From positions 8,165-72,164 of the IMG/VR virus record IMGVR_UViG_3300028805_000076: a DNA stretch of 64,000 bases; one strand, given 5' to 3'. This document shows positions 7,107 to 47,000 of the stretch, piece after piece. The position numbers were made by a program, and so were the translations under genes. Every line of letters begins with the position of its first letter. Within the stretch, counting starts at the first letter, position 1. The notes under the pieces are model-generated. The model worked only from the letters and a program-made list of their open reading frames with translations. It did no database searches and had not been told where the DNA came from. The DNA comes from a virus. Lineage: Duplodnaviria > Heunggongvirae > Uroviricota > Caudoviricetes.

Positions 7107-7130
7107 ATGTTATATATATATAGATATATA

Positions 7131-7148
7131 GGTACTTAATTAAGTACC
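7131..7148. repeat. 18-bp palindrome GGTACTTAATTAAGTACC (copy 2)
   Basis: exact copy. Confidence 0.8.
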
Positions 7149-8484: not shown

Positions 8485-8629
8485 AATAGTAAAAAAGTAT
8501 TAAAAGTTGACATTTATGTTTTTTTCGTAATGCAAAATTAATACATTTTTCTGTAAAAAGCAAGTTTTGCAAATTAATTAACCATTTATTAACTGAATAT
8601 ATAAAAAATGTTAACACAATAAAAAAAGT

Positions 8630-8690
8630 TGGTAAAAAATTTGGAGATGCCATAAAAAAGCATTAACTTTGCAGCGAGGGAAATAGATGG
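8630..8690 (+). promoter_or_regulatory. Bacteroides-type promoter with extended conserved motif TAACTTTGCAGCGAGGGAA
   Basis: -7 box TAnnTTTG at 8664-8671 followed by the conserved CAGCGAGGGAA. Confidence 0.45.
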
Positions 8691-8830
8691 TCTTGCTTGG
8701 ATACACAGTTTTATTTGGATGAATTTATGGTGTTATAACCCAATCAAAATAATAGGAATCATTTTGATTTCCCATATATTTTATATATAATAGACATAGT
8801 TATTAACACTTTAATTATTTCTATTATATT

Positions 8831-8995
8831 ATGCTATTCGAAGTAACTGAAAATATTGTAGCTACAACTACAGTCACTGTAGAAGCTGCAAATGAAGATG
8901 AAGCTTATGCAAAAGCTGACGAAATTGTTGCAAATATGGATATTTCACAGTTTATGTTGGGTGCTAAATTGGAGGGAAGTTTGCAGAGAATTTGA
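8831..8995 (+). CDS. small acidic protein (54 aa)
   Basis: ATG..TGA ORF below the track cutoff, between promoter 8664 and terminator 9034; antisense promoter downstream. Confidence 0.35.
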   Translation: MLFEVTENIVATTTVTVEAANEDEAYAKADEIVANMDISQFMLGAKLEGSLQRI

Positions 8996-9033
8996 TTAAT
9001 AGATTCAAAATTTTATGTTTGTTATTTTTGAAA

Positions 9034-9066
9034 GATGTGTTTCACAACACATCTCTTTTTTTTTGT
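9034..9066 (+). terminator. intrinsic terminator (gatgtgt-ttcacaa-cacatc + T10)
   Basis: hairpin followed by a long T-run. Confidence 0.6.
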
Positions 9067-9069
9067 CAT

Positions 9070-9110
9070 CTGATGACGCTGCAATTCCCTCGCTGCAAAG
9101 ATACGACTTT
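9070..9110 (-). promoter_or_regulatory. minus-strand copy of the TATCTTTGCAGCGAGGGAA promoter motif
   Basis: reverse complement of 9081-9103 is TATCTTTGCAGCGAGGGAATTGC. Confidence 0.4.
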
Positions 9111-9213
9111 TTTTTGAAAGTACCAAATATTTCTTGTACTTTAACATTTATTTAACACAATAAAAAAAAGAGCACCACCTTTTGGGTGATGCCCTTTGCA
9201 GAATGTTCACGTG

Positions 9214-9528: not shown

Positions 9529-9544
9529 AATTGTTACTGTTTTA

Positions 9545-9600: not shown

Positions 9601-9649
9601 ATCTTTAACAAAACTTTAACTGATGTGTTAAATTAATGTTAAATAACCA

Positions 9650-10570: not shown

Positions 10571-10730
10571 AAAGTTACATATTGTAGTCCCCAAAGCTTT
10601 GGTGAAGCTTGATAATCTGCAAGTCCGTATGGCTTCAGATTATCCCTACGACAACAAACCAACCTATGACGAAGTGCGCCAAGAGATTATCAAAATCCTT
10701 GATATGTTTGAAGATGTTAGCTATAATTAG
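10557..10730 (+). CDS. hypothetical small protein
   Basis: ATG 10557 gives a 14-nt overlap with the upstream gene; the track ORF (10491) is longer. Confidence 0.35.
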   Translation: MSMPKKLHIVVPKALVKLDNLQVRMASDYPYDNKPTYDEVRQEIIKILDMFEDVSYN

Positions 10731-10769
10731 CTAACATTTTTTTTATGTGTTAAATAAATGTTAAACCGT

Positions 10770-10815
10770 CAAAAATATTTGGCGGTTTCTATAAAAATCC
10801 ATATCTTTGCAGCGA
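10770..10815 (+). promoter_or_regulatory. TATCTTTGCAGCGAGGGAA promoter motif copy
   Basis: -7 box 10802-10809. Confidence 0.4.
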
Positions 10816-10833
10816 GGGAAATATGCATATATA

Positions 10834-10872
10834 TAAAAAAAACCATCCTATCGTATTGATAGGATGGAAAAC
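10834..10872. terminator. bidirectional hairpin terminator (ccatcctatc...gataggatgg)
   Basis: 9-10 bp stem flanked by A-run and A/T tail between convergent genes. Confidence 0.45.
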
Positions 10873-14220: not shown

Positions 14221-14463
14221 TTAACATATTTCATAAAATTTCTTAATACTGTCCATTATACTGAATAACTCAAAATTTGACAGTGCTGTCAGCTTATAGA
14301 TATAACCAAGAGGGAATTGAATCTTTCCAATTCCATCCTCAATAAATACATTAATATCAGTTGTCCCGTAATTAACATAAACGTTTGGAATTGAAAGACG
14401 ATATTGTTCATCTTCTTTACCATATCTTCGCATCAGCTTATGTATTCCCAATAATAGATTCAT
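14221..14463 (-). CDS. hypothetical protein
   Basis: 80-aa ORF. Confidence 0.45.
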   Translation of the reverse strand: MNLLLGIHKLMRRYGKEDEQYRLSIPNVYVNYGTTDINVFIEDGIGKIQFPLGYIYKLTALSNFELFSIMDSIKKFYEIC

Positions 14464-14488
14464 ATTATATAGTATTATATGTATATAA

Positions 14489-14506
14489 GGTACTTAATTA
14501 AGTACC
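14489..14506. repeat. 18-bp palindrome GGTACTTAATTAAGTACC (copy 4)
   Basis: exact copy, followed 18 nt later by a hairpin with a T-run. Confidence 0.8.
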
Positions 14507-14519
14507 CTATTCTTAATGT

Positions 14520-14556
14520 GCAAAAGCATCAGCTTTCACAAGCTAATGCTTTTTAG
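14520..14556 (+). terminator. hairpin + T5 (loop contains TTTCACAAG)
   Basis: gcatcagc-tttcacaa-gctaatgc then ttttt. Confidence 0.4.
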
Positions 14557-14595
14557 AACCCACGAAAAAATAGGTAAAGTTATGAAGAAAGTATG

Positions 14596-14685
14596 TTGGT
14601 AGAGATGGATTTGAACCACCGAAGCCTCATAAGAGGCGACTGTGCCACTAAACACAGCCCCATTTGACCGCTTTGGTATCTACCG
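14596..14685 (-). tRNA. class-II-like tRNA (long variable arm), atypical 8-nt anticodon loop, anticodon unresolved
   Basis: acceptor cGGTAGA/TCTACCa, D arm CCA-AAGCGGTCAAA-TGG, T arm GGTGG-TTCAAAT-CCATC, variable hairpin GCCTC-TTAT-GAGGC; anticodon stem CTGTG/CACAG encloses TTTAGTGG. Confidence 0.45.
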
Positions 14686-14687
14686 AA

Positions 14688-14779
14688 TGGTTGATAGAGA
14701 GGGATTCGAACCCTCGAAGCCTCCGAAGAGGCGGTTGAGCTACTAACACAACCCCATTTGACCGCTTTGGTATCTATCG
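14688..14779 (-). tRNA. class-II-like tRNA, paralog of the previous, encoded CCA, anticodon unresolved
   Basis: same 5' half; T arm GAGGG-TTCGAAT-CCCTC; 3' end TCTATCA-A-CCA; loop region TTAGTAG. Confidence 0.45.
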
Positions 14780-15334: not shown

Positions 15335-15380
15335 GTTTTTTAACGCTGCAAAGATAGGTAAAAATCGGCAATGCTGCAAG
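15335..15380 (-). promoter_or_regulatory. Bacteroides-type promoter (TATCTTTGCAGCG on minus)
   Basis: plus gctgcaaagata 15346-15356. Confidence 0.5.
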
Positions 15381-15424
15381 ATTTAACGACACTTTAACAA
15401 AACATTAACCAATATGTTAAATTA

Positions 15425-15485
15425 AAGTTAAAGTACCAGAAATATTTGGAATTGTAGTGAAAAAGCTCTATCTTTGCAGCGAGGA
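15425..15485 (+). promoter_or_regulatory. repeat-module promoter TTAAAGTACCAGAAATATTTGG...TATCTTTGCAGCGAGG
   Basis: -33 TTTG and -7 TATCTTTG (15469-15476); module repeated at 17460, 20925, 23770. Confidence 0.45.
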
Positions 15486-15498
15486 AAATAGCGTACGG

Positions 15499-15537
15499 CA
15501 AAAAAAATGGCATCATCTCATTTCGAGATAATGCCAT
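15499..15537 (-). terminator. intrinsic terminator for minus gene 15556-16005
   Basis: aatggcat...atgccatt stem with an A8 run on plus (U8 on minus). Confidence 0.5.
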
Positions 15538-15555
15538 TCCTTAATGATGTCAGTG

Positions 15556-16005
15556 TTATGGAATTGTTATCTTTCCCTCGGCAATTTCATCCTTCAATTT
15601 GTCGATAAAAGATACAAGCCCATCAGCATACTCCTTCAAGTCATCCCAATCCGTGCGACTCTCGCACAAGTCTTCGGGTGAACTCTTTGACAAGTCACAG
15701 TAGTACAAATCGTTGTCATACTCCATTTCGCCATAAGCAAGCTTTTCAAAACAGTTTGTGACTTCGCCATAACATTGATAGGAATATCCTTTGGAAATCA
15801 TCTTTTTCATTGCGAAGCTCCAATATTCTGACTCGTTGCGTCTGCGGTCAGCGAAGTATTCTTGAACTGTCACCAATTGGCCGTTAGCTTCGATATACTC
15901 TTGTATAGCTGCTTCACGTTCAAGCCCTATCTTATTAGAATTGTTGAGAGCTTCGATAAAGCTCTTCCATTGGCTGTCCGTGTTATACTTGTAAATCTTC
16001 AACAT
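15556..16005 (-). CDS. hypothetical acidic protein
   Basis: 149-aa ORF. Confidence 0.5.
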   Translation of the reverse strand: MLKIYKYNTDSQWKSFIEALNNSNKIGLEREAAIQEYIEANGQLVTVQEYFADRRRNESEYWSFAMKKMISKGYSYQCYGEVTNCFEKLAYGEMEYDNDLYYCDLSKSSPEDLCESRTDWDDLKEYADGLVSFIDKLKDEIAEGKITIP

Positions 16006-16341: not shown

Positions 16342-16500
16342 TTACTTGAATATAGTTACAATTTTGTTACGAGGAATACGGTTTTCGCGGCAGAAGGTCA
16401 CAGCTTCAGTATATTTGTCGAACTCGTTTCTTTCGTCCATTGAGACAAAATCGTCAATCTTGACCGAAGCCCATACAATATATTTCTTTTCCTTCTTCAT
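16342..16500 (-). CDS. small protein (52 aa)
   Basis: ATG 16500..TAA 16342, coupled 3 nt from both neighbours; below the ORF-track cutoff. Confidence 0.35.
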   Translation of the reverse strand: MKKEKKYIVWASVKIDDFVSMDERNEFDKYTEAVTFCRENRIPRNKIVTIFK

Positions 16501-16762: not shown

Positions 16763-17335
16763 TCAAGCTCTCTTGCCTTTTGAAGTGTTGTGGGCTTGTG
16801 TGCCATACTCCTTCCAACCAAAGGTTGCAGCTACGAAAGGACGAATGCTCTTGGTGCGCTTGAAGAACTTCTCTTCGGTGTCGATAACTCCATTGACAAT
16901 ATCATTCACGATTTTCTCTGCCTCATCGTGTGTATCAACATAACGATAGACAACATAGTTCCATCCATCGTGGTGAGCGCCTTCAGCACGAACATTGTAC
17001 TTGTCTGCATAGAAGCAAACATCGTCACAGCCGATACTTGTGGTAAGCACTTTATTGACGTTAGTGCCAATAATCTTGCCTCCTTTTCTGCGGCCATACC
17101 AAAATCCAGCATCAACGAAACCTACGATATAGCCAACCCCTTCAATATTGAGGTTGCAAACTTCATCGTAAAGCCCATCCAAAATGCATTGATAGACCCT
17201 TTCATTGTCAATATCTTCAACGTCACAGTCATTGCACTCTGCAAGCATTTCGCGTGTTTCCTTAACAACCTCTTCGTCATAACAGTCAAAACTGCTGAAG
17301 ATAGTGAGCTTCACTTGCTTAATGTTCTTTGCCAT
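16763..17335 (-). CDS. hypothetical protein
   Basis: start set at ATG 17335 (MAKNIKQ) ~45 nt below the promoter. Confidence 0.5.
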   Translation of the reverse strand: MAKNIKQVKLTIFSSFDCYDEEVVKETREMLAECNDCDVEDIDNERVYQCILDGLYDEVCNLNIEGVGYIVGFVDAGFWYGRRKGGKIIGTNVNKVLTTSIGCDDVCFYADKYNVRAEGAHHDGWNYVVYRYVDTHDEAEKIVNDIVNGVIDTEEKFFKRTKSIRPFVAATFGWKEYGTQAHNTSKGKRA

Positions 17336-17369: not shown

Positions 17370-17410
17370 AATTTCACGGTGCAAAGATAGGGAAAAAATC
17401 AATACCATCC
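17370..17410 (-). promoter_or_regulatory. promoter + conserved leader (TATCTTTGCACCGTGAAATTAAAACAATTACTAACATTAAAA)
   Basis: plus gcaaagata 17382-17389. Confidence 0.55.
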
Positions 17411-17459
17411 AACTTTTTTCTTAACATTAACAAAACTTTAACCGATATGTTAAATTAAT

Positions 17460-17515
17460 GTTAAAGTACCAGAAATATTTGGAATTGTCACCAAAAACCC
17501 TTATCTTTGCAGCGA
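17460..17515 (+). promoter_or_regulatory. repeat-module plus promoter TATCTTTGCAGCGAGGGAAAGAGCATACAGC
   Basis: -7 box 17502-17509. Confidence 0.45.
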
Positions 17516-17552
17516 GGGAAAGAGCATACAGCTACTTGTCATCAAAAGAGAC

Positions 17553-17588
17553 AAAAAAAAGGACACCCGACAGTAGTCGGATGCCCTC
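17553..17588 (-). terminator. intrinsic terminator downstream of the tRNA-Leu 3' exon
   Basis: ggacacccgac-agta-gtcggatgccc with an A8 run on plus. Confidence 0.55.
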
Positions 17589-17621
17589 CAAACAATTATT
17601 ACTAACCTTAAAAACACGTTG

Positions 17622-17670
17622 TAGCTCAAGTGGGATTCGAACCCACACGGTCGAATGACCAAGGGATTTT
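17622..17670 (-). tRNA. tRNA-Leu(UAA) 3' exon (positions 35-84)
   Basis: AAAATCCCT-TGGTCATTCGACCG-TGTGGGTTCGAATCCCAC-TTGAGCTA; near-identical to the 3' half of E. coli tRNA-Leu(UAA). Confidence 0.7.
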
Positions 17671-18451
17671 CTTACTACTCTTGCTTTGATACAAGCCAAC
17701 TTCGTGAGTTGTTGTAGTCTGGACTATTTCTTCACCATGCCAATTTGGTTTAGGTGTTTCGTATATAGTCTCTACGCCATTTAGGATAAATATCCATTTA
17801 GTAAGCCATCGCCAAAGTTTATGTCACCATAAACAAGGTTTCTGTTTGTTAGCGAAATTCTACTTCCCAATATTTTTTATTTATTGTTTTTTCCTTTCGG
17901 AAAGGAAGCACTCTTAATGTTTAGACCTCGATAATTATCTGTTTGTGCGTGGCAATTAGGGCATAAAATTTCAAGATTCTCTAATCTATCATCGGTTGTT
18001 ATTCCATTTTTATGGTGTAACTCCAATGGTATTTTTTTACCCATCCATTTTGTAAGCCCACAACATTCACATTTTTCTTCTTTAATTTGTTCTCTAAAAA
18101 GCCTATTTTTTAATTTATAAGAACTATAATGAGAATTCTCAACTAATAATTCATCGGTTTTTATTTGGCGTTTAGGATTAAATTTTAAACCTATATTCCA
18201 ACCTTTACCCGTAAAATGTGAAATATCAATTTCATACTTTTCAATAATTTTATGAAGAGTATTATAATTCCCACCACAAGGTTTTAAATTAAAAAACCTA
18301 AGCATTTCAGCAATACTATGTGAACATTTTGCTGCTTCTACATATTCTTCTTTCGTTCTTTCTTTTCTCATATCATATTACTTTAATAATAAATAGTACG
18401 ATATGAGAAAAAGTAATCACGAAATTATGACTATATTTTGGCCTTTACCAA
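17671..18451 (-). other. group-I-like intron in the tRNA-Leu anticodon loop (U34/A35), carrying an HNH ORF
   Basis: classic tRNA-Leu(UAA) intron position; exon ends in U, intron ends in G; R-like AGACUAUAUAC and S-like GAAAUAGUCC elements after the ORF. Confidence 0.6.
17877..18371 (-). CDS. HNH endonuclease (intron-encoded)
   Basis: CECCG...ELHHKNGITTDDRLENLEILCPNCH. Confidence 0.65.
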   Translation of the reverse strand: MRKERTKEEYVEAAKCSHSIAEMLRFFNLKPCGGNYNTLHKIIEKYEIDISHFTGKGWNIGLKFNPKRQIKTDELLVENSHYSSYKLKNRLFREQIKEEKCECCGLTKWMGKKIPLELHHKNGITTDDRLENLEILCPNCHAQTDNYRGLNIKSASFPKGKNNK

Positions 18452-18486
18452 AAGTCCCTAGTGTCTACCAATTCCACCACTGAGCC
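18452..18486 (-). tRNA. tRNA-Leu(UAA) 5' exon (positions 1-34)
   Basis: GGCTCAG-TG-GTGGAATTGGTAGACAC-T-AGGGA-CTT matches tRNA-Leu D-arm TGGTGGAATCGGTAGACAC and anticodon stem AGGGA/TCCCT. Confidence 0.7.
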
Positions 18487-19700: not shown

Positions 19701-19799
19701 GAAATTTTACGTCTTTAACATTATTTTAACATTTCAGTTAACAAATGTTAGTTCTGACGAAAGTCTTCGGCATAGCCTTCTTTGTTTTTTTAATGTTAA

Positions 19800-20092: not shown

Positions 20093-20110
20093 GGTACTTA
20101 TTTAAGTACC
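20093..20110. repeat. palindrome variant GGTACTTATTTAAGTACC (copy 5)
   Basis: 8-bp arms intact, centre changed. Confidence 0.7.
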
Positions 20111-20385
20111 CCATATGCATATATACAAACAAAAAAAAATGGACACAGTTTCACAACTATATCCATTTTATCTTTTACCTTGTGCCACTTTCACAAGCTC
20201 GTCACACGGTAACACATCTTTCATCTTATCGAGTGTTGTGTTTTTTCATTAATTTTGTTTTTCAGTTTATAAAAATACTCGATAAAAAATCCTTTGCCAT
20301 CACTCTTTCCTCTAATATAAATATATACAATTTTTTATTAAAATCAAAATTTATTCATATTTTTTTTTAATTTTTTTTTTGTTTA

Positions 20386-20813: not shown

Positions 20814-20829
20814 ACATCTTTGTTTTTTT

Positions 20830-20860
20830 CTTGGTGCAAAGTTACGAAATTAATAGCATA
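20830..20860 (-). promoter_or_regulatory. Bacteroides-type promoter (TAACTTTG on minus)
   Basis: plus caaagtta 20837-20844. Confidence 0.5.
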
Positions 20861-20924
20861 TCAGCAAGAAATAATACTGTATTAACAAATTTTTAACAGT
20901 ATAGTTAAATCCAAGTTAAAGTAC

Positions 20925-20970
20925 CAGAAATATTTTGTACTCTCACGAAAAAGCCCTATCTTTGCAGCGA
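20925..20970 (+). promoter_or_regulatory. repeat-module plus promoter TATCTTTGCAGCGAGGGAAAGAGCATACAGC
   Basis: -7 box 20957-20964; the first ~40 transcribed nt match copy 17510-17550. Confidence 0.45.
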
Positions 20971-21007
20971 GGGAAAGAGCATACAGCTACTTGTCATCAG
21001 AAGACAC

Positions 21008-21037
21008 AAAAAAAGCATCGAGCATAATGCCCGATGC
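21008..21037 (-). terminator. intrinsic terminator downstream of tRNA-Gln
   Basis: gcatcgagc-ataat-gcccgatgc with an A7 run on plus. Confidence 0.5.
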
Positions 21038-21074
21038 AAAAACATTAAAAAACAATAACTATTAACAAAGCTTG

Positions 21075-21147
21075 TTGTCCCTCCAAGACTCGAACTCGGA
21101 CTTTCAGACTCAAATTCTGACGTGCTAACCATCTACACCAAGGGACA
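21075..21147 (-). tRNA. tRNA-Gln(UUG)
   Basis: acceptor TGTCCCT/AGGGACA, anticodon stem TCAGA/TCTGA, loop ATTTGAG, T arm CCGAG-TTCGAGT-CTTGG. Confidence 0.7.
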
Positions 21148-21149
21148 GT

Positions 21150-22125
21150 GTTGAATTGCTTTTATAAATATATAAAAAAATAAAATATAAAGCAAATAGA
21201 AAAGAAAAAAAAAGTGCCGATGGGAGCCAACGTGCCAAGTGCCGTGCGATAGTGGGGACTTTCTCATATTCATAGGTCCGCACCTTGCAGTGCGTAGGGG
21301 CGATTGTTGTAGCTCTCATCGGCTTTTACCCAAGGGCCGACTGTGCGGCATAGTTATGCGGCATTAACTATCCTAACTCATTTATTTTGCCGCTAATAAT
21401 GAGATTATTGGAACCTTGGTTTCAAGGGGCATTCTCGTGGACTCGATGGCGTAGAAAGGCGCAAGTATCTGCTGTTCGGAGTGGCACAGTGACCGCGTAA
21501 AGCGTGTTATAGTTTGTGCAGACTCGGAATAATGTCTCTCGTGGGAACCGCGTAAACATAAACGTGCGGTAAAATGAGACTTACGTAATGCGTTGTAGCA
21601 CCTTGGATAGGATATAATCGCCTATCCACGAAAATGCCCGAAAATTTATATTTCCTTAGCTTGAATATCGAATTCTATCTTGTCGATGTGCATAACTTGT
21701 GCGCTTGTTGAGCTAATATTATACATGCAGTTTGTTCAATGCACCAAGTATAGAAGAAATTAACAGTTTTAATTGGGCTGTCCCCTAATGTGCTGCCTCA
21801 TAGCTGTAGGATTTACAAGTTACACTTACCTTTAGATTCATTTCTCAATTAATAATTTTGATTTACCCTCAAAGGGGTCGGTCTCTTGCATTCATCGGTA
21901 TGTCGGTCAGTTAAGTTGTTGATTATTACCGTATATAAAATTATAATAAAATCTATGATTCTACTACATTTTATTTCTTGCTTCAACGAAACACTGCTTT
22001 TTAGGAACATAAAGTTCGGCCATCCACAGTTGGTTTCTCCACAAGCGTAAATTCGGTAGTACGGCTACCTATTTTTTATTAGAATATGTGTTAACTGTTA
22101 CAAACCCCACTGTTTGGTTGGGCTA
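21150..22125. ncRNA. ~1-kb ORF-free GC-enriched region; candidate large structured RNA
   Basis: no ORF of 60 aa or more on either strand apart from one that overlaps the tRNA; many local hairpins (e.g. ggatagg-atataatcg-cctatcc); composition visibly richer in G+C than the flanks. Confidence 0.3.
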
Positions 22126-23705: not shown

Positions 23706-23769
23706 TTTTTTGACTCAACCAAATTTTTTACAAAAAAAATGATGCCTATTAAGTTTATTTAACAATTGT

Positions 23770-23835
23770 GTTAAATTCAGGTTAAAGCCATTAAAATATT
23801 TTGTACTCTCACAAAAAAGCACTATCTTTGCAGCG
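23770..23835 (+). promoter_or_regulatory. repeat-module plus promoter TATCTTTGCAGCGAGGGAA
   Basis: -7 box 23823-23830. Confidence 0.45.
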
Positions 23836-23854
23836 AGGGAATTGAGTGTGGTCA

Positions 23855-23872
23855 GATACTTAATTAAGTACC
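23855..23872. repeat. palindrome copy 6 (GATACTTAATTAAGTACC)
   Basis: one substitution from the consensus; lies ~25 nt after the plus promoter. Confidence 0.7.
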
Positions 23873-23887
23873 CTATTTGGCAGCACA

Positions 23888-23930
23888 AAAAATGGCATCG
23901 ACTTTCACAAGCCAATGCCATTTTTCTTTT
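23888..23930 (+). terminator. intrinsic terminator (loop TTTCACAAG)
   Basis: aatggcatcgac-tttcacaa-gccaatgccatt + tttttctttt. Confidence 0.5.
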
Positions 23931-24042: not shown

Positions 24043-24528
24043 CTAATTTCTATCATCTTCCTCGTCAGACTGCTTATGATAGTCTTCATCATTCTCGGTG
24101 CTCCAAACAACCTTGCGCTCTTCTTGGTCATATATTTCAATGTCATCACTGTGAGAGTCACCCCACCAATAATCGGCAACTGCTGAAGCAATAACATCGG
24201 CCAAATAATCCGAAGAATATAGAATATCGTCTTCTCGACCGACAATGCGCTGACAATAACGGTCTTGGTCTTGGTACTCATAATCGCGTGTGCGCTTGTT
24301 GTAAAACGTCTCATAAGAGTCGCTAATACAAAGCCAATCAATCAACAGTTCGGGGTCGTGCTCGAAAAGGTCATCAAGCTCGGTCTCTTCAATTCCATCG
24401 GGGTAATACTCTTCCAAAAGCTCTTGAAGCTTCTTAATTTCGTCCTCGGTGAAAAGGTCATAGACAACTTGTGCGCCACGTGACCACTTAATGTCGGTCA
24501 AATTCTTTTCTTTATAGACTTTAATCAT
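24043..24528 (-). CDS. hypothetical acidic protein
   Basis: 161-aa ORF. Confidence 0.5.
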   Translation of the reverse strand: MIKVYKEKNLTDIKWSRGAQVVYDLFTEDEIKKLQELLEEYYPDGIEETELDDLFEHDPELLIDWLCISDSYETFYNKRTRDYEYQDQDRYCQRIVGREDDILYSSDYLADVIASAVADYWWGDSHSDDIEIYDQEERKVVWSTENDEDYHKQSDEEDDRN

Positions 24529-24864: not shown

Positions 24865-25392
24865 TTAGACTTCAAGCTCCACAAGAGGCACCCAAATTTT
24901 GGTGCTGCCTACTCTCTCATTGGGGGTGTGCCAACTGCTTTCATCGGCATCGTTTGGAGTGTCAAAATAATTGCGGTGTGCCACAAAATCCTTCATACGT
25001 GCCTTCTTCTCTGCTTCAGTGTGGACACCCATAACATCCCAAATGTCTTCGTCACTCACAGTAAAGTGATTGCCCTTAAGTGGACCGTACACGAGCATCG
25101 AGACTTGCGTTGTCTCTTGCTTGTTTGCATCGAGCTTAACCACGATATGCGCGGTAGAGTCATTGTTGGTATTCATACCCACTTTGACAACCTTGAAGAA
25201 CGTGGTGTGCTTGCCTTGAATGCACTTGAAGAAACTGTATTCAACATACACAGTGCGCACCTCCTTAAACTTTGGATGCTTGTCATAATCATCCTTATTG
25301 GCCTTCCACCAAGAATTGGCTGCGGTAGTGGTTGGAAACTCTGCAACTGCATTTGCAGTGCCATCGGTGTAATAAACCTTGATTTGATACAT
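24865..25392 (-). CDS. hypothetical protein
   Basis: 175-aa ORF. Confidence 0.5.
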   Translation of the reverse strand: MYQIKVYYTDGTANAVAEFPTTTAANSWWKANKDDYDKHPKFKEVRTVYVEYSFFKCIQGKHTTFFKVVKVGMNTNNDSTAHIVVKLDANKQETTQVSMLVYGPLKGNHFTVSDEDIWDVMGVHTEAEKKARMKDFVAHRNYFDTPNDADESSWHTPNERVGSTKIWVPLVELEV

Positions 25393-25399
25393 AGCTTTG

Positions 25400-25455
25400 T
25401 TGTTTTTTAATGTTAGTACTATTGTTTAATTTTCACGGTGCAAAGGTACGCATTT
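25400..25455 (-). promoter_or_regulatory. promoter + conserved leader module
   Basis: plus caaaggta 25441-25448. Confidence 0.55.
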
Positions 25456-25544
25456 TTTTTGAATTGTGCAATAGTTTACCCAAAAAAAATGCATTTTATT
25501 AACATCATTTAACATTTGCCCCTATTTCAGCTATAAAAGACTGT

Positions 25545-25590
25545 TCAGAGCTGTATGCTCTTTCCCTCGCTGCAAAGATAGTGGTTTTTT
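25545..25590 (-). promoter_or_regulatory. second upstream promoter, minus-strand copy of TATCTTTGCAGCGAGGGAAAGAGCATACAGC
   Basis: reverse complement of 25550-25580. Confidence 0.4.
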
Positions 25591-25711
25591 CAATACAATC
25601 CAAATTTTTTGGCAAGAAAATGCATTTCATTTAGATTATTTAACATTTGGCCATATAGATACAAAAAAATGCCCACACTTTTCAGTGTAGGCATTGCAAG
25701 CATCTGCCGTG

Positions 25712-27391: not shown

Positions 27392-27697
27392 ATGAAAAAT
27401 ATAATTAGATTAACAGAAAATGACTTACATAGAATAGTAAAGAATGCAGTAACAAGAATATTAACTGAAGGTAATCAATGGATTGGCGATTTTGGTAGAG
27501 AGAATTTCAATATGTTGCAACAGAAAGTAAATGATTGTGGTGGGGCGTGTTCATTTTCATTGAATGGTACAGATTTTACGATAACACCTAGCCAAAGAGG
27601 TTTTTTAATACAAAGCGGAACTGATTTTGGATATGAATCGTTTCAAATAGATTCTGCGTTGAAAGCTGCTTGGAAATATTATAATGGTGTGAGATAA
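27392..27697 (+). CDS. protein with an N-terminal IRLTEN-type domain (paralogs at 30959-31453 and 54866-55321)
   Basis: MKNIIRLTENDLHRIVKNAVTRILTEG shared with MKNRIRLTENQLTNIIKECVRDIL and MAKKIRLTENELRNVVAESVKRVL. Confidence 0.5.
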   Translation: MKNIIRLTENDLHRIVKNAVTRILTEGNQWIGDFGRENFNMLQQKVNDCGGACSFSLNGTDFTITPSQRGFLIQSGTDFGYESFQIDSALKAAWKYYNGVR

Positions 27698-27725
27698 TTA
27701 TACTATTATGTAAAGTAAAGAATAA

Positions 27726-27770
27726 ATAAGCAACCAATATTTTAATTTATTGGTTGCTTATTTTTTTATC
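27726..27770. terminator. bidirectional terminator hairpin (aagcaaccaata...tattggttgctt)
   Basis: 12-bp stem + T7 between convergent genes; a paralogous copy at 30915-30958. Confidence 0.5.
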
Positions 27771-41057: not shown

Positions 41058-44000
41058 ATGGAGATAACTAATAGTATTGTCAAGAATTGTTTAACTGAAT
41101 ATGTACAAGATAGGTTTCAATTATTGACTGAAGACCAAAAAAGAACAATTCGCAACAAAATAACAAGGGGTGTTTCATCAAGAGTACCTCATCGTGTCGA
41201 TGATACCAAAATGATTGAGAAATTGGTTGATGATATATGGAATACATATGTTCTTCACCCACTTCACGATGGGGTTCATCATAGGCAAAATGATGAAATC
41301 ACTATAATCAATCAGAACATTGAAAGATTGATTCCATATGTTATAAAACAAAAAAGTGATAATGAATCTGAAAATGTTACTTACTATATTACAACAAATC
41401 CAAGAATTCGTAACAGTTGGGAGAACTTGATACAATCACAAAGGCAGAACAGAAATGTAACTTTGTGGGGAAACGATGGTGGAGATTTGACTTATTGGGA
41501 TGTAAACAAACGTTATAATGATGCTGTAAATTCTGCTAAAAACACTAAAATTGAAGGCAAGTACCATTACTCTGTTTACAAGGTAGAAAACTACGATACA
41601 CCAATTGAAGGGTTGGGAATGACAGTTAGTGAACTTGGACAGTATACTGGAGGAAAAGGCTCGCTAAAATGTGTTCCGTTGTGCTATACACAATCTCTAA
41701 ATACGTATAACAATTACACAAAAGGCAATGAATACAACATGTATGCTCTACTGCGTGACGGTTGGCAGAATGAACCATGCAAAATGACAGAAGGTTATCC
41801 ATTGGACAGCTATGGTTTGTCAATACTATTTGTAATTGTAGACCCTAATGGAAACATTGCATACAACAATGTAAGATGGAATCACGGACCAAAGGGGTAT
41901 CCAAGAAGTGTTGACAATATATTCACTTATAAGGAATTGGCAGAAATTGTTGGTAGCGATGTAATGGAACAAATTAACACTACTGCTGATGTGGACCAAT
42001 CGTTACGTTTTACATATGAGGTTGAAACTAAACTTAAAGAAGGTCAAGATATTAACGACATATTTATGTCTAAAGGTACAGAACGCTGTGGTTATATACC
42101 AGTTTGTTATATGCATAAATGGAATTTTCTTGATTCTTCAAAGTCTTTGTTATGTGACGAATGGTTCGATGGTGTTGGTAGTTTTCATCCAAATGGTTTT
42201 AGTTATGTCTATAAAAGCAACTTATATAACTTTATTGATTTTAATGGAGAACTTGTTTGGGATAGACCGCTTGAAGAATGGTTTAATCACATTGATTCGT
42301 GGTCATTTGATGTTTATGGCTTGTGTAGGGTTATGAAAGACTATCATTATAATTGGTTAAAGACTGATGGTACACTATTATTTAATAACCAACAACAAGA
42401 ATGGCTAGATAGAGCTAGTGATTTTCATAATCAAATTGCTTATATAAAATTACATGGTAAATACAATTATATTAGAACTGATGGTTCATTGGTTTGGGAT
42501 TATGATGACACACAATATTGGTTTGATGATGTTGCTGATAAAGGTTTTAATAACTCCAATGTTGCTATGGTAACAATTGACAGATTGGTTAATTTATTGA
42601 AAACAGATGGAACACTAGTTTGGAATAAACCACCTGAATTATGGTTTAATCACATTGTTGCTAATGATAGTAACAAAGATATATACCAAGTAGAACGTTC
42701 CAATAAATATAATTTCTTAAGAATGGATGGTACATTGGTTTGGCAGAAACCTTTTAATGAATGGTTTACATCAATTGGAGCATTCTATAATGGTTTGGCA
42801 AAAGTAACTACATCATTTGGTGAAACATATAATTTTATTAAAATGGACGGAACATTGCTGTTTGACGAAACAGATGATACAAAACATTTTGATAAAATTG
42901 GTAATTTCGCTAGTGGACCAGCATTTGTTTGCATAAATAATAAATATAATTTCATTAGAGAAGACGGAACTTATATTTGGGATAAACCAATAGGGCAATG
43001 GTTTGATAGTGTTAGCGAATATTTTAGAGAAGGTTTTGCTTGTGTGCGCAAGAAAGGAGTTGCAAATTTTATATCTACAGAAGGAAAGTTGTTATGGAAG
43101 AAACCATTAAAAGATTGGTTCAGTGGTGTAGACCCTTTTTATCAAGGGATAGCACAAGTACGAAAGAATGGCAAAAATAATTACATACGAACAAACGGGA
43201 AATTAGTTTTGAATAAACCATTTGATGAGTGGTTTTTCTGGATGGGTAAGGTTATAAATAGCCCTAATATATTTATTGTAAGAGATGCAATGAGATATAA
43301 CTATATTAAAGATGGTGAATTGTTATATAACCAACCGCATACAAAATGGTTTACTGATATAAGCAGAATGCTTGATAAAATCAATGATAATATATCTGGC
43401 TTCCTTGTACAAAAGGGATATAGGCACAATTTCTTGAAACTTGATGGAACACTTCTCAATAGCAGTTTCGTAAGTAAAAGTGAATTAGAATCTATAATTC
43501 GAAGAATAAAACATCAATCGTCCAATATACAAGAATCCTTAAGGGAATATGTAACTAAAAATTTACAACTTCTTACTGAAGACCAGAAGAAGACAATTCG
43601 TAACAAGATTGCAAGAGGTATTGTTTCAATGACTAATCTTGATGTAAACAGTACAGAAGTACAATCGTTAGTAGATAATGTTTGGAACATTTACGTTGTA
43701 CACCCAATTGAAGGCGAAAAGCGTCAGAATGACGAGATTACTGTAATTAATCAGAACATTGAAAGATTAGTACCGTATGTATTGAAGCAAAATGATTCTG
43801 AAAATTACTTTATAAGCAGCAATCCAAGGATTCGTAAAAGTTGGGAAAACTTGATACAAACCCAAAGGCAGAACAGACAAACCAATATATGGCAAGACAA
43901 TGATAATTTGCTTTATTGGAACACAAATAAAAAGTATAATGATGCAATAAATGCAGCAACAAGTGAAGAAATTAAAGGCAAGTATCATTATAGTGTGTAT

Positions 44001-47000
44001 AAGATAGAAGATTACAATACACCAATTGAAGGCTTGGGAATGACTGTTACAGAACTTGGCAAGTATACTGGTGGACAAGGCGCAGTTCCTTTGTGTTATA
44101 CACAATCTCAAGGTACATATAACAGTTATACTGAAAACAATCAATTTAATATGTATGCTGTGTTGCGTGATGGATGGCAGAATGAACCTTGTGAGATTGA
44201 AGAAGATTATCCATTGGATAGCTACGGTTTATCAATGATATTTGTAATTATTGATGAAAATGGAAAGATTGAATACAGTAATGTTAGATGGAATCACGGA
44301 CCAAGAAATTACAAAAGAAGTGTTGACAACATATTCTCGTACAATGAATTGAGGGATATTGTTGGAAGTAATGTAATTAAGCAAGTTGGGGCAAATGTAG
44401 AAATAGACACATCGTTACAATTGACATATGAGGTAGAGAAAAAGTTGAAACAAGACTTATCTATTTACCAAATATTTGGTAATGTTGGCTTTTTTAATGA
44501 CGGTTTGGCAAAGGTTTTCTATTCTGGTTTATACAATTACATAGATTCATCTGGAGACTTACTAACTGATGAATGGTTTGACTTTTGTTCTCCATTTCAA
44601 AATGGGCTTGCTGTGGTACGAAAAGGACATAAGGCAAATTATATAAAGACAGACGGTACTTATTTATACAACACAGATAATACTGATGATTGGTTTACTA
44701 TGGCAAGTTATTTTGATGAAAATGGTTCTGCTATCGTTGGAAAGAATCATAAATACAATTTTATTCTAAAAGATGGTACATTCATTTGGAAAGGTGAATG
44801 GTTTGATTGGGTTGGTGATTTTATTAATGATATTGCTCTAGTTAAAAAAGATAACAAAGCTAATTTTTTAAGATTTGATGGTACATTAGTTTGGAATTAT
44901 GAAAATACAAATGATTGGTTTAATGATGCTACTAATTTTAGTGCGGATTATCATGTCTCATTGGTTCAAAAAAATGGTAAATTTAATTATTTGAAGACTG
45001 ATGGTACATTTGTTTGGAATTATCTTGACACAAAGAAATGGTTTGATGGTTCTTATCATTTTTTTGATGGTATAGCTCAAGTTAAAGTCAACTATAAACA
45101 TGAAGAAAAATGGAACTACCTCAAACTAGATGGAACTTTTTTATGGAAGAAGCCACTAAAACAGTGGTTTGATAATGCTTATAGGTTTGATGAAGGTGTT
45201 GGTATAATAGAATATAAAGGCAAAAAAAATTGGTTAACAGCCAAAGGTGAAATATTTTGTCAAGATATGTGGTTTGATGGGGTTGGAACATTTCACGAAG
45301 GGATTACTAAAGTAGAAATAAACGGTAAATTTAACTTTTTAAATAGTAATGCTAAGTTATTGTGGGGGTCTTACGATGACACAACAGATTGGTTTGATTA
45401 CGTTGATAGGATTGAGCAAGGGTATGCTAAAGTAAGAAAACAAGGACGTTGGAACATATTACGACCAGATGGTAAATTATTGTGGGATTATTCAAATCCT
45501 CAAGATTGGTTTAATAATATTGGACCACTTGATAAAGAAGAAATAATATCTGTTTCAAAAGATGGTAAAAGTAATTATTTAAATCTTCAAGGTAAACTTC
45601 TAAACCAAAATTGGTTTGATAGTTGTTTTGTATTTGAGAATGGAGTTGGTAAAGTTCAAAAAGACCAACACATGAATCTAATCAGAAAAGATGGCACATT
45701 TGTATGGAACAGACCATTGAAAGATTGGTTTATTTTCATTGGCGAAGTAGACGATTTTGGTTGTGCAGAGGTATACACACATTATCAAGGTGCAACTGTT
45801 GGTAACGTATTGAAAATAGAAGATGGTACGTTACTGTGGAAGAAAAGTCCAAAATTCTGGTTTCGTTACATTGACGTTAATGAGATATTACCAAATGGTG
45901 TAAAAGGTTATAGAGTCTCAAAGGCAATAAAGACTATGATGAAATATAACTTCTTAAAGTTAGATGGTACTCTTCTTTTCAAAACATTTTTATCTGTTCA
46001 CAGCTATAAGTTGGCAATGAATGCTTTAAGTAATAATGATAATCAAATAATACAAGAATCTTTACGAGAATATGTTAAAGATAAGTCGTTGTTGGCTGAA
46101 GCCGATTCACGAATTAAGGGAACTAGAAACACAATTAAAAGGGGTATTGCTGCAATAACCAAACTTGACATTAATGACCCTATTGTAGAAAACTTGACAA
46201 ATGATGTTTGGAATACTTATGTTGTTCATCCTATCGCAAATGAAAATCGTCAGCTTGACGAATATATTGCCATTAGGAATAATGCTGACAGACTTCTTAT
46301 GTACGCTGTAAAACAGAACCAAGATGGTACATATTACATAACAAAAAATCCACGTTTGAAAAATGGCTTTGAGAATCTTATTCAAGCACAAAGGAAAGAT
46401 AATACAAAACAAATACTTGATAATAATGCAAATTTGTTCCAATGGTATAACACACAGAAATACAATCAAGCATTGGAAAACTTACAAGCCAATAGTAAAA
46501 AAATACAAGAAGGCAAATATAGTTACAAAGCATATCCAATCACTGATTTTTATGATAACATTAAAGGCTTGGGAATGACTGTTGAAGACCTTGGGGAGTG
46601 GACTGGTAGTGAAGAAGCTGTCGAATTGTGCTATACTCAATCTGAAGATACGTATAACCAATATACACACGGCAACAAATACAATATGTATGCTTTATTG
46701 CGCCAAGGTTGGCAAGACGAGCCTTGTGAGAAAGGAGAAGGTTATCCTTATGACAGCTACGGTCTTTCTATGATATTCGTAATTATCGATTATAATGGTG
46801 ATATAGCTACAAGTAATGTTAGATGGAATCACGGTGACAATTCTTATTCTAATGTAGATAATATGTTCACCTATTCTAAATTAGTACAAATTGTTGGTTC
46901 TAACATACTTAATAAAATACATTGTACATATAATGATGACATAACTCGTAATATGTCACTTATAGTAAGACTTGAAAAAGCTTTAAGCAATATTGATGCA

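What the first reader, a model, noticed from the sequence alone, without database searches (positions are those of the whole stretch)
17460..17552. Repeated plus-strand promoter TATCTTTGCAGCGAGGGAA with a conserved ~40-nt initial transcript, pointing antisense to the gene block
Eight copies of the extended motif exist. Plus-oriented copies are at 8664, 10802, 15469, 17502, 20957 and 23823, and minus-oriented copies at about 9096 and 25573. The motif combines the Bacteroides -7 box TAnnTTTG with an invariant GCAGCGAGGGAA start region. Copies 17502 and 20957 share a further ~40 nt (AGAGCATACAGCTACTTGTCATCARAAGASACAAAAAAA) and are preceded by an identical upstream element (TTAAAGTACCAGAAATATTTGG). 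Between 10.8 and 41 kb every protein gene is on the minus strand, so these promoters would make antisense or small non-coding RNAs. Two of them read straight across tRNA genes. This is a conserved transcription unit with no annotated product.
Basis: partly seen in the sequence, partly recalled or inferred. Interest (0 to 1): 0.6.

Follow-up and report, generated by a model that had tools for sequence, protein, structure and literature searches.

The report
ORF-less phage promoters facing neighbours' terminators
A giant phage of Bacteroidota carries eight copies of a strong host-type promoter with no gene behind it, most of them aimed head-on at the terminator of the neighbouring gene, so they probably make short non-coding antisense transcripts that act on that neighbour.

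Summary
Eight copies of TATCTTTGCAGCGAGGGAA (at most 1 mismatch) lie between 8.6 and 25.6 kb, against 0.01 expected by chance. They form a subclass ("class B") of a family of about 28 promoters in the window. The family has a -33 TTTG, a -7 TAnnTTTG and two upstream GTTAA repeats, the same layout as in Bacteroides phage B40-8.

Class A members are followed by an A-rich leader and an ORF. Class B members have a G-rich purine start (GAGGGAA) and no ORF.
- Six class B copies fire into the A-run and hairpin that terminates the converging gene or tRNA.
- Three of those six are exact back-to-back partners of a class A promoter, around a TTAAC-N6-TTAAC-N6-GTTAA-N6-GTTAA palindrome.
- One copy drives a small conserved ORF. 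One sits in tandem upstream of a class A promoter.

The same ORF-less GGGAA-start class occurs in related 387, 401 and 317 kb phage contigs. One position, facing tRNA-Leu(UAA), is conserved in all of them. The transcript body is poorly conserved and has no shared structure.

Best reading: these are non-coding convergent "counter-promoters" acting in cis, by collision-assisted termination or antisense pairing. No expression data exist, so the function is inferred. I rate it a new variant of known promoter-terminator cassettes, of moderate interest.

The parts
8626..8683 (+). Class B promoter B1 (TAACTTTGCAGCGAGGGAA). Its upstream GTTAA repeats are degenerate. It drives a 155-nt leader, a 54-aa ORF (8831-8995) and a terminator at 9032-9064.
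   Evidence: The whole unit is about 100% identical to the 387-kb relative, where the surrounding region is about 91% identical.
9084..9160 (-). Class B promoter B2. It stands alone between two terminators and fires into the back of the plus-strand terminator at 9032-9064.
10745..10821 (+). Class B promoter B3. It stands alone between the plus-strand terminator at 10715-10744 and the minus-strand terminator at 10835-10867, which it faces.
15409..15488 (+). Class B promoter B4 (GGAAA variant). It is the exact divergent partner of the class A promoter at 15337-15416(-) and faces the terminator at 15500-15536(-).
17442..17521 (+). Class B promoter B5, the copy inside the reported coordinates. GTTAA repeats at 17449 and 17460, -33 TTTG at 17478-17481, -7 box at 17502-17509, start region at 17510-17520. 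It is the divergent partner of the class A promoter at 17371-17449(-).
17550..17589 (-). Intrinsic terminator of the minus-strand tRNA-Leu unit (hairpin plus T8). Read on the plus strand it is the A8 run plus hairpin met by B5 transcription 43 nt after the -7 box.
17621..18486 (-). tRNA-Leu(UAA), interrupted in the anticodon loop by a 781-nt intron that carries an HNH endonuclease ORF (17877-18371). It is the gene converging on B5.
   Evidence: ARAGORN with introns allowed; HNH; 3' exon similar to Lak phage DNA
20897..20976 (+). Class B promoter B6. It is the divergent partner of the class A promoter at 20825-20904(-) and faces the terminator at 21008-21037(-) of tRNA-Gln (21074-21147).
23763..23842 (+). 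Class B promoter B7.
23887..23925 (.). Terminator with an A6 run, a hairpin and a T5 run, so it can act in both directions. It ends the minus-strand gene 24043-24528 and probably also the B7 transcript.
   Evidence: 7 of the 8 bases after the hairpin are T in the B7 direction
25561..25612 (-). Class B promoter B8. It lies in tandem, in the sense direction, 59 nt upstream of the GTTAA elements of the class A promoter at 25429-25515(-), which drives gene 24865-25392.
17371..17449 (-). Class A (mRNA) promoter, back-to-back with B5. TATCTTTGCACCGTGAAATTAAAAC..., followed by a 42-nt A-rich leader and then gene 16763-17335.
17427..17464 (.). Palindromic core TTAAC-N6-TTAAC-N6-GTTAA-N6-GTTAA shared by the divergent promoter pair. 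Half-sites repeat every 11 bp. The same core occurs at the pairs around 9605-9642, 15394-15431 and 20882-20919.

Best explanation
The motif marks a separate, ORF-less class of phage promoter ('class B').

What the sequence shows:
- It has the host-type signals: -33 TTTG, a 19-20 nt spacer, -7 TAnnTTTG, and in 6 of 8 copies two GTTAA upstream repeats. This layout also occurs in Bacteroides phage B40-8.
- Class B differs from the phage's gene promoters ('class A') only in the first dozen transcribed bases. Class B has G-rich purine GAGGGAA(A/T). Class A has an A/U-rich leader followed by an ATG.
- Class B sits in the gaps of a densely promoted block of small genes and tRNAs. It is placed head-on, 23-56 nt from the A-run and hairpin that terminates the converging neighbour. 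It is often the outward half of a palindromic two-way promoter cassette.

Inferred mechanism:
1. Host RNA polymerase starts 3-6 nt after the box.
2. It makes a non-coding transcript that runs into the back of the neighbour's terminator.
3. The act of convergent transcription is what matters, together with the automatic complementarity to the neighbour's 3' end. It would stop read-through by polymerase collision at the hairpin, so insulating each cassette, and/or pair with the neighbour's 3' end as lambda OOP RNA does. A folded, trans-acting RNA is not the likely product.
4. The invariant start sequence is most simply a class tag, set by promoter-escape needs or read by a phage-lineage factor.
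For: Promoter identity:
- 8 copies against 0.01 expected.
- All 8 have TTTG 19-20 nt upstream of TAnnTTTG, matching the sigma-ABfr consensus quoted in PMC7366714.
- An nhmmer profile finds about 28 family members in the window.
- The same GTTAA-N6-GTTAA-N36-37-TAnnTTTG layout precedes genes in phage B40-8.

Class split:
- Across four lineages, 41 of 57 non-GGG promoters have an ORF of at least 50 aa starting within 70 nt. Only 1 of 35 GGG-start promoters does (Fisher 8e-12).

Position:
- 6 of 8 window copies face an A-run plus hairpin 23-56 nt downstream. Those hairpins are the intrinsic terminators of the converging units.
- The same arrangement holds in L077, L081 and L082 and in the 401-kb and 317-kb contigs.
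- The copy facing tRNA-Leu(UAA) is syntenic in four genomes, although its transcript and hairpin sequences have diverged.

Selection:
- The 19-nt core is 151/152 identical to the 387-kb relative, while the flanks are 92-95% identical.
- The 401-kb and 317-kb lineages were found through the GTTAA palindrome, independently of the start region, and also carry GGGAA-type starts.

Against a structured RNA:
- The transcript bodies share no fold, have no Rfam match and evolve fast.

Precedent:
- Collisions between converging polymerases at a hairpin stop read-through (bioRxiv 10.1101/2022.10.23.513370).
Against: - There is no expression evidence of any kind. The start site, strength, timing and RNA length are all inferred.
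- An insulator or antisense role needs only a promoter. It does not explain why 12 transcribed bases are invariant.
- Two of the eight copies (8664, 25580) do not face a terminator. In the 401-kb phage, half of the GGG-start promoters point in the sense direction, in tandem with a gene promoter.
- Only 5 of 18 facing hairpins have a T-rich tail in the class B direction. Most transcripts have no obvious end and could run for kilobases antisense to genes.
- The terminators already look strong, so extra insulation may not be needed.
- The relatives L077, L081 and L082 were found by searching for the exact motif. Their invariance is therefore ascertainment, not independent evidence.
Confidence: 0.45

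Rival explanations
1. The invariant start region is a loading or recognition tag. It would be an operator overlapping the start site, or an ops/Q-like site on the non-template strand or nascent RNA, read by a phage-lineage-specific factor. That factor would switch class B on or off, or make its polymerases resistant to terminators. The result would be timed, long antisense transcription that shuts off the early block, and long sense transcripts from the tandem copies.
For: - The 12-nt start is uniform within a genome but differs between lineages: CAGCGAGGGAA, CAGTGGGGGAACAG and AGGTGGGAA. Class A starts vary from copy to copy.
- The conservation is confined to the core. The downstream sequence differs from copy to copy and diverges from the 387-kb relative faster than the core does. 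Simple gene conversion would not stop there.
- Most copies lack a terminator in their own direction.
- Tandem class B then class A arrangements exist.
Against: - No candidate factor (sigma, NusG-like, Q-like or repressor family) was seen among about 80 window ORFs.
- In the 401-kb phage the number of G and A residues in the tag varies, which argues against a strict binding site.
- There are no timing data.
Confidence: 0.15
2. The transcripts do not matter and the element works at DNA level. It could be the mirror half of a symmetric upstream element that helps the partner gene promoter, through shared polymerase recruitment or divergent-transcription supercoiling. Or it could be a repeated promoter-terminator cassette kept uniform by recombination, serving as a crossover point for shuffling gene cassettes, like PeSLs in T4-type phages.
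For: - Three copies are exact mirror partners of gene promoters around a palindromic core with half-sites every 11 bp.
- The phage is T4-like (tail tube gp19 and prohead protease families).
- The region is a patchwork of small ORFs, HNH genes and tRNAs with higher GC than its flanks.
- A 442-nt gene-sized indel against the 387-kb relative starts right at the terminator faced by B4.
- Intergenic modules share 75-90% identity with each other.
- PeSLs are described as composite terminator/promoter motifs that mediate indels (PMC4122927).
Against: - Class B also occurs without any partner promoter (10802, 9103, L081).
- Its own -33 and -7 signals are closer to consensus than those of class A. A passive mirror image would not need that.
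- Only one of about six indels abuts a class B module.
- Homogenisation by recombination would not leave the adjacent transcript sequence unrelated between copies.
Confidence: 0.2
3. The promoters make primers. The purine-rich start would give a stable RNA-DNA hybrid (R-loop) next to an easily opened A/T run, so the divergent pairs would act as origins of replication, as at the T4 uvsY and gene 34 origins.
For: - The first 11-12 transcribed bases are almost all purines, and an A7-9 run lies 23-56 nt downstream.
- Divergent pairs of such promoters exist in the 401-kb phage.
- All 8 copies lie in one 17-kb region of a 387-kb genome.
Against: - Eight to twenty or more origins within a few kilobases is implausible.
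- The A-run is simply the neighbour's terminator tail, and the tandem copies lack it.
- GC skew only follows gene orientation, with no origin-like turn in the cluster.
Confidence: 0.05
4. The products are trans-acting small RNAs. One possibility is decoys that mimic the promoter-bearing 3' half of the 47-nt Bacteroides type II-C CRISPR repeat (an RNA anti-CRISPR). Another is sponges for a host RNA-binding factor.
For: - The published repeat GTTGTGATTTGCTTTCAAATTAGTATCTTTGAACCATTGGAAACAGC (PMC6390457; PMC5609589) shares TATCTTTG-N7-GGAAA(C/G)AGC with copies 17502, 20957 and 25580. The 401-kb phage has GGGAAAACAGC.
- Five of 18 facing units have a terminator that also works in their own direction, which would give discrete RNAs of roughly 90-100 nt.
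Against: - The 5' half of the repeat, which is the part that pairs with tracrRNA, is absent, and there is no array.
- The resemblance was noticed after the fact, and 8 of its matching bases are the generic -7 box.
- There is no conserved fold and the bodies evolve fast.
- There is no Rfam match.
- Ordinary Bacteroidota gene promoters in metagenomes also carry TTTGCAGCGAGG(G/A)AA.
Confidence: 0.04

Closest known systems
Bacteroidales phage promoters with GTTAA upstream repeats (as in Bacteroides phage B40-8; basis of the strong 'phage promoter' used in Bacteroides engineering, Whitaker et al. 2017, recalled from memory and not readable here)
   Same: The layout is the same: GTTAA-N4-7-GTTAA-N34-38-TAnnTTTG with a -33 TTTG. 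B40-8 has 5 strict matches, all upstream of genes. In this window, 17 promoters match the strict pattern against 0 in shuffles.
   Different: In B40-8 every copy points with the genes and is followed by an A-rich leader and an ORF. Class B has a G-rich purine start and no ORF, and is aimed at a neighbour's terminator or paired back-to-back with another promoter.
PeSL (promoter-early stem-loop) cassettes of T4-type phages (PMC2839356, PMC4122927)
   Same: Both are short, repeated, composite terminator-plus-early-promoter modules. Both lie between small, variable genes in hyperplastic regions of T4-like phages and are associated with indels between close relatives.
   Different: In a PeSL the promoter points away from the stem-loop, towards the next gene. 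Here an extra promoter points into the stem-loop. Only one indel boundary was seen next to a class B module.
Collision-driven bidirectional termination between convergent units (Ju et al. 2019; Wang et al., bioRxiv 10.1101/2022.10.23.513370)
   Same: Two converging transcription units flank a hairpin. Head-on collision at the hairpin prevents read-through.
   Different: That system was described for convergent cellular gene pairs in E. coli. Here one partner would be a dedicated, ORF-less promoter repeated after many genes of a phage. No transcription data exist for it.
Lambda OOP RNA and similar phage cis-antisense RNAs
   Same: The promoter lies just beyond the 3' end of a gene and points back into it. 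The RNA is automatically complementary to the target's 3' end, including its terminator.
   Different: OOP is a single 77-nt RNA with its own terminator and a defined target (cII). Class B is a multi-copy family with a shared 5' tag, and most copies lack their own terminator.

Membership tests
Bacteroidota sigma-ABfr-type promoter | -7 box TAnnTTTG | tested here: met
   8 of 8 copies. The consensus is quoted in PMC7366714.
Bacteroidota sigma-ABfr-type promoter | -33 TTTG about 19-21 nt upstream of the -7 box (the spacing range is from memory) | tested here: met
   8 of 8 copies have TTTG, with a 19-nt spacer (20957, 23823) or a 20-nt spacer (the other six).
Bacteroidota sigma-ABfr-type promoter | Transcription actually starts a few bases downstream | not testable with these tools
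   No RNA data are available. The contigs retrieved are DNA assemblies.
GTTAA-repeat phage promoter (B40-8 type) | Two GTTAA repeats 4-7 nt apart, 34-38 nt upstream of TAnnTTTG | tested here: met
   6 of 8 class B copies and 11 other promoters in the window match; 8664 and 25580 have degenerate repeats. B40-8 has 5 strict matches.
GTTAA-repeat phage promoter (B40-8 type) | Drives a downstream gene through an A-rich leader | tested here: not met
   Only 1 of 35 GGG-start promoters has an ORF starting within 70 nt, against 41 of 57 for class A.
PeSL cassette | Composite stem-loop terminator plus early promoter, repeated in intergenic gaps of a variable region of a T4-like phage | tested here: met
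   Map. T4-like structural families. Modules similar to each other.
PeSL cassette | Promoter co-directional with the terminator, serving the next gene | tested here: not met
   Class B points into the terminator. The co-directional role is filled by class A.
PeSL cassette | Indels between close relatives are bounded by the modules | tested here: inconclusive
   One indel (15554-15995) abuts the B4 terminator and one (near 9530) lies next to an A/A promoter pair. Four others are not clearly bounded by modules.
Cis-antisense RNA (OOP-like) | Promoter beyond the 3' end of the target, convergent, with the transcript overlapping the target's 3' end | tested here: met
   True by position for 6 of 8 copies.
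Cis-antisense RNA (OOP-like) | Own terminator giving a discrete short RNA | tested here: inconclusive
   5 of 18 facing hairpins have a T-rich tail in the class B direction (window copy 23823, L077, L081, L082, 401_e). The rest do not.
Cis-antisense RNA (OOP-like) | RNase III-dependent effect on the target | not testable with these tools
   This needs experiments.
Structured trans-acting small RNA | Conserved secondary structure or covariation, or a match to a known family | tested here: not met
   No shared fold. No Rfam match at gathering score or at E<=1. The transcript body is 92.5% identical to the relative against 95% for the upstream flank.
Type II-C CRISPR repeat with internal promoter (BfragL47-II) | Full 47-nt repeat, including the 5' GTTGTGATTTGC part, arranged in an array with spacers | tested here: not met
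   Only TATCTTTG-N7-GGAAA(C/G)AGC is shared (repeat sequence, class B sequences). There is no 5' half and no array.

The most novel reading that the evidence does not exclude
Giant T4-like phages of Bacteroidota may carry a dedicated, portable class of gene-less 'counter-promoters'. These would be marked by a purine-rich 5' tag that a phage factor reads, and installed head-on behind each early gene and tRNA. Their job would be to control those genes by programmed polymerase collision or by blanket antisense transcription. That would be a genome-wide regulatory layer built from promoters alone.
Probability: 0.2. Interest if true: 0.7.

Novelty: new variant of a known kind. Interest (0 to 1): 0.5.

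Why it matters
If these promoters are active, a phage devotes many of its strongest host-type promoters to making no protein. There are 8 in 17 kb here and more in relatives. They are placed with conserved geometry against neighbours' terminators. That would be a clear natural example of convergent transcription used as a designed regulatory or insulating part.

It would also give compact, portable parts for Bacteroides engineering: a strong promoter, an insulator and a two-way cassette. It would add a transcription layer to the poorly known biology of 300-400 kb Bacteroidota phages.

If they are inactive or incidental, the result is still useful. It defines two promoter classes and the cassette structure of the variable early region.

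Tried and rejected
1. Host origin of the motif. A scan of 185,579 species genomes for TANNTTTGCAGCGAGGGAA gave 33 isolated hits, none in a comparable promoter setting (no GTTAA repeats, single copies, mostly non-Bacteroidota). The motif is not a copied host promoter or a prophage element.
2. Wider distribution of the exact motif. In IMG/VR it occurs only in one 387-kb contig that is 94-95% identical to the window. The other 28 loci hit by the 15-mer are chance.
3. Small peptides. Some copies have an ATG or TTG 5-9 nt after GAGG, but three have none. The one at 10802 is cut to 3 codons in the relative by an indel. Rejected.
4. Known RNA families. There is no Rfam match over 8-27 kb other than tRNAs. 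A permissive scan of 17.5-18.8 kb gave only noise.
5. Shared RNA fold. In some copies the 5' GAGGG pairs with a CCCUC next to the hairpin (15469, 17502), but not in others. Rejected as a family feature.
6. Origin of replication. GC skew simply tracks gene direction.
7. A trans factor in the window. No sigma, NusG, Q or repressor family was found among the ORFs scanned.
8. The Whitaker 2017 paper, for the published phage-promoter consensus, is not held. B40-8 was scanned directly instead.
9. Distant relatives through the neighbouring helicase protein. Only the close relative was found. The palindromic GTTAA core worked instead.
10. Transcript-derived contigs. The look-up returned only DNA assemblies.

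Full report
OBSERVATION

The 19-mer TATCTTTGCAGCGAGGGAA occurs 8 times in the window with at most one mismatch. The copies are at 8664+, 9085-9103-, 10802+, 15469+, 17502+, 20957+, 23823+ and 25562-25580-. Shuffles give 0.01 expected.

All eight copies lie between 8.6 and 25.6 kb. Copies 17502 and 20957 share a further ~40 nt and a nearly identical upstream element. Only the first 12 nt after the -7 box are common to all eight.

WHAT THE WINDOW IS

The window has no close relative among deposited phages. The only hit is a tRNA fragment similar to Prevotella Lak megaphages.

It is 91-97% identical (mostly 94-95%) to a 387.5-kb IMG/VR contig. Its ORFs include T4-type tail tube and prohead protease families, BspA-type leucine-rich repeat proteins, RNA ligases and HNH endonucleases.

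So it is a T4-like giant phage of a Bacteroidota host. The stretch from about 8.5 to 27 kb is a block of small unknown ORFs, HNH genes and tRNAs. Its GC content is somewhat higher than that of the flanks.

THE MOTIF IS ONE SUBCLASS OF A LARGE PROMOTER FAMILY

Every copy has a TTTG 19-20 nt upstream of TAnnTTTG. This is the -33/-7 consensus of the Bacteroidota primary sigma factor (PMC7366714).

Six copies also have two GTTAA repeats 6 nt apart, 37 nt upstream of the box. A strict pattern for this layout finds 17 sites in the window and none in shuffles. A profile built from them finds about 28 sites.

The same layout precedes genes in the unrelated Bacteroides siphovirus B40-8. From memory, it matches the phage promoter consensus of Whitaker et al. 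2017, but that paper could not be read here.

The family splits into two classes after the box:
- Class A reads GCA(C/T)CGT(N)AAAA... and is followed by an A-rich leader and an ATG 18-56 nt downstream.
- Class B, the finding, reads GCAGCGAGGGAA and has no ORF.

CONTEXT

- Six class B copies fire into an A7-9 run plus hairpin 23-56 nt after the box: 9103-, 10802+, 15469+, 17502+, 20957+ and 23823+. On the other strand these hairpins are the intrinsic terminators of the converging gene or tRNA.
- Copy 17502 faces a tRNA-Leu(UAA) that carries a 781-nt intron with an HNH gene.
- Copy 20957 faces tRNA-Gln.
- Three copies (15469, 17502, 20957) are exact back-to-back partners of class A promoters. 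The GTTAA coordinates of the two partners always differ by 7, which gives a palindrome TTAAC-N6-TTAAC-N6-GTTAA-N6-GTTAA.
- Two copies (9103, 10802) stand alone between two terminators.
- Copy 8664 drives a 155-nt leader and a 54-aa ORF. That unit is essentially 100% identical to the relative.
- Copy 25580 lies in tandem upstream of a class A promoter.

RELATIVES

The exact motif is absent from 185,579 species genomes in any comparable context. In IMG/VR it occurs only in the 387-kb relative, where the same 8 orthologous copies sit in one ~17-kb region.

Three short metagenome contigs (L077, L081, L082) are more diverged and keep the motif and the terminator-facing layout. They were found by searching for the motif itself, so their invariance is not independent evidence.

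A search for the palindromic GTTAA core does not depend on the start region. It found a 401-kb and a 317-kb phage contig.
- Divergent pairs in these contigs carry starts such as TACCTTTGCAGTGGGGGAACAGCGAAGG and TATCTTTGAGGTGGGAA.
- In the 401-kb phage, many intergenic gaps hold three promoters. One GGG-start promoter faces the upstream gene's terminator. One GGG-start promoter points the other way, about 60 nt upstream of a class A promoter. The class A promoter then precedes the gene.

Across all four lineages, 41 of 57 class A promoters have an ORF of at least 50 aa starting within 70 nt. Only 1 of 35 GGG-start promoters does (Fisher 8e-12).

The copy facing tRNA-Leu(UAA) is in the same position in four genomes, although its transcript and hairpin sequences differ.

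SELECTION

Against the 387-kb relative:
- the 19-nt core is 151/152 identical;
- the 75 nt upstream are 94.9% identical;
- the next 56 nt downstream are 92.5% identical.

My calculation from these numbers: with 6.2% background divergence, one or fewer changes in 152 positions has a probability of about 7e-4. For the 88 start-region positions alone it is about 0.02.

The transcript bodies share some pieces within a lineage, for example AGAGC(A/G)TACAGC and GTCATCAG. They have no common fold and no Rfam match.

Five of 18 facing hairpins also have a T-rich tail in the class B direction, so they could end the class B RNA at roughly 90-100 nt. The others do not.

INTERPRETATION

Shown:
- a real, non-random, conserved, ORF-less promoter class;
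- a lineage-specific purine-rich start;
- placement head-on against neighbours' terminators, often as half of a palindromic two-way cassette.

Inferred:
- Host polymerase starts 3-6 nt after the box and transcribes into the back of the terminator.
- Because the body is unconstrained while the position and the first 12 nt are constrained, a cis role is most likely. That role would be convergent transcription that stops read-through by collision at the hairpin (precedent), and/or an antisense RNA complementary to the neighbour's 3' end, as with lambda OOP.

This reading does not explain the invariant start. A tag read by a phage factor is the main alternative. Other alternatives are a DNA-level role (mirror half of the partner promoter, or a PeSL-like recombination module, with weak support), R-loop priming, and a trans-acting or CRISPR-repeat-like RNA. 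The resemblance to the CRISPR repeat is a lead only.

VERDICT

The element is a new variant of known kinds: Bacteroidales phage promoters, promoter-terminator cassettes and cis-antisense units. It is not a new principle, and its activity is untested. Interest is moderate.

Noticed in passing
window 17621-18486 (-): tRNA-Leu(UAA) interrupted in the anticodon loop by a 781-nt intron that carries an HNH endonuclease ORF (17877-18371). Default ARAGORN and Rfam miss it. The 401-kb and 317-kb relatives have an intron-less tRNA-Leu(UAA) at the same position.
   Followed up: partly
window 14595-14779 (-): Two tandem tRNA-like genes of 91-92 nt with long variable arms. One has an 8-nt anticodon loop that ARAGORN reads as 'tagt'; the other is called tRNA-Thr(agt). 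Their identity is unclear. Only one of the two reached the Rfam tRNA gathering score, and only in the more permissive regional scan (32.3 bits against a threshold of 29).
   Followed up: no
window 8664-9064 (+): The unit behind class B copy 8664 comprises a 155-nt leader, a 54-aa ORF (8831-8995) and a terminator. It is essentially 100% identical to the 387-kb relative, where the surrounding DNA is about 91% identical, with one amino-acid change. The leader may be a conserved RNA element.
   Followed up: partly
window 7131-7148, 14489-14506, 23860-23877; L091 7791-7815: The palindromic hairpin GGTACTTAATTAAGTACC recurs. At 7130 and in the 317-kb phage it is followed by a T-run, so it acts as a terminator. 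At 14489 and 23860 it lies in the spacer between a class B start (or its remnant) and a terminator.
   Followed up: no
window 14480-14556: This stretch resembles the transcribed tail of copy 23823 (hairpin, CTATT, A-run, terminator of the two tRNAs). No class B promoter sits in front of it. An 80-aa ORF (14221-14463) is there instead, which suggests a lost or replaced copy.
   Followed up: no
window 16632, 17371, 23681, 25429, 26092, 26838 (all -): Six class A promoters share a nearly identical long leader, GTGAAA(A)TTAAA(A)CAA..ACTAACA(T/A)TAAAA, in front of unrelated small ORFs. This is a second repeated regulatory module.
   Followed up: no
window 15554-15995: The 149-aa ORF at 15556-16005 is absent from the 387-kb relative and replaced there by about 133 nt. 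The breakpoint lies right next to the terminator faced by class B copy 15469. Other indels against the relative are at about 9530, 16359-16499, 19751-19799, 20093-20127 and 21931-22103.
   Followed up: partly
window 17502-17525, 20957-20980, 25557-25580: TATCTTTG-N7-GGAAAGAGC resembles the 3' half of the published 47-nt Bacteroides type II-C CRISPR repeat (...TATCTTTGAACCATTGGAAACAGC). The 401-kb phage has GGGAAAACAGC. This may be chance or a shared promoter start preference.
   Followed up: partly
window 27392-27767 (+): A 101-aa plus-strand ORF with its own strong plus-strand terminator sits inside the otherwise minus-strand block.
   Followed up: no
window 41058-48194 (+): A 2378-aa ORF with no PHROG family match.
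   Followed up: no
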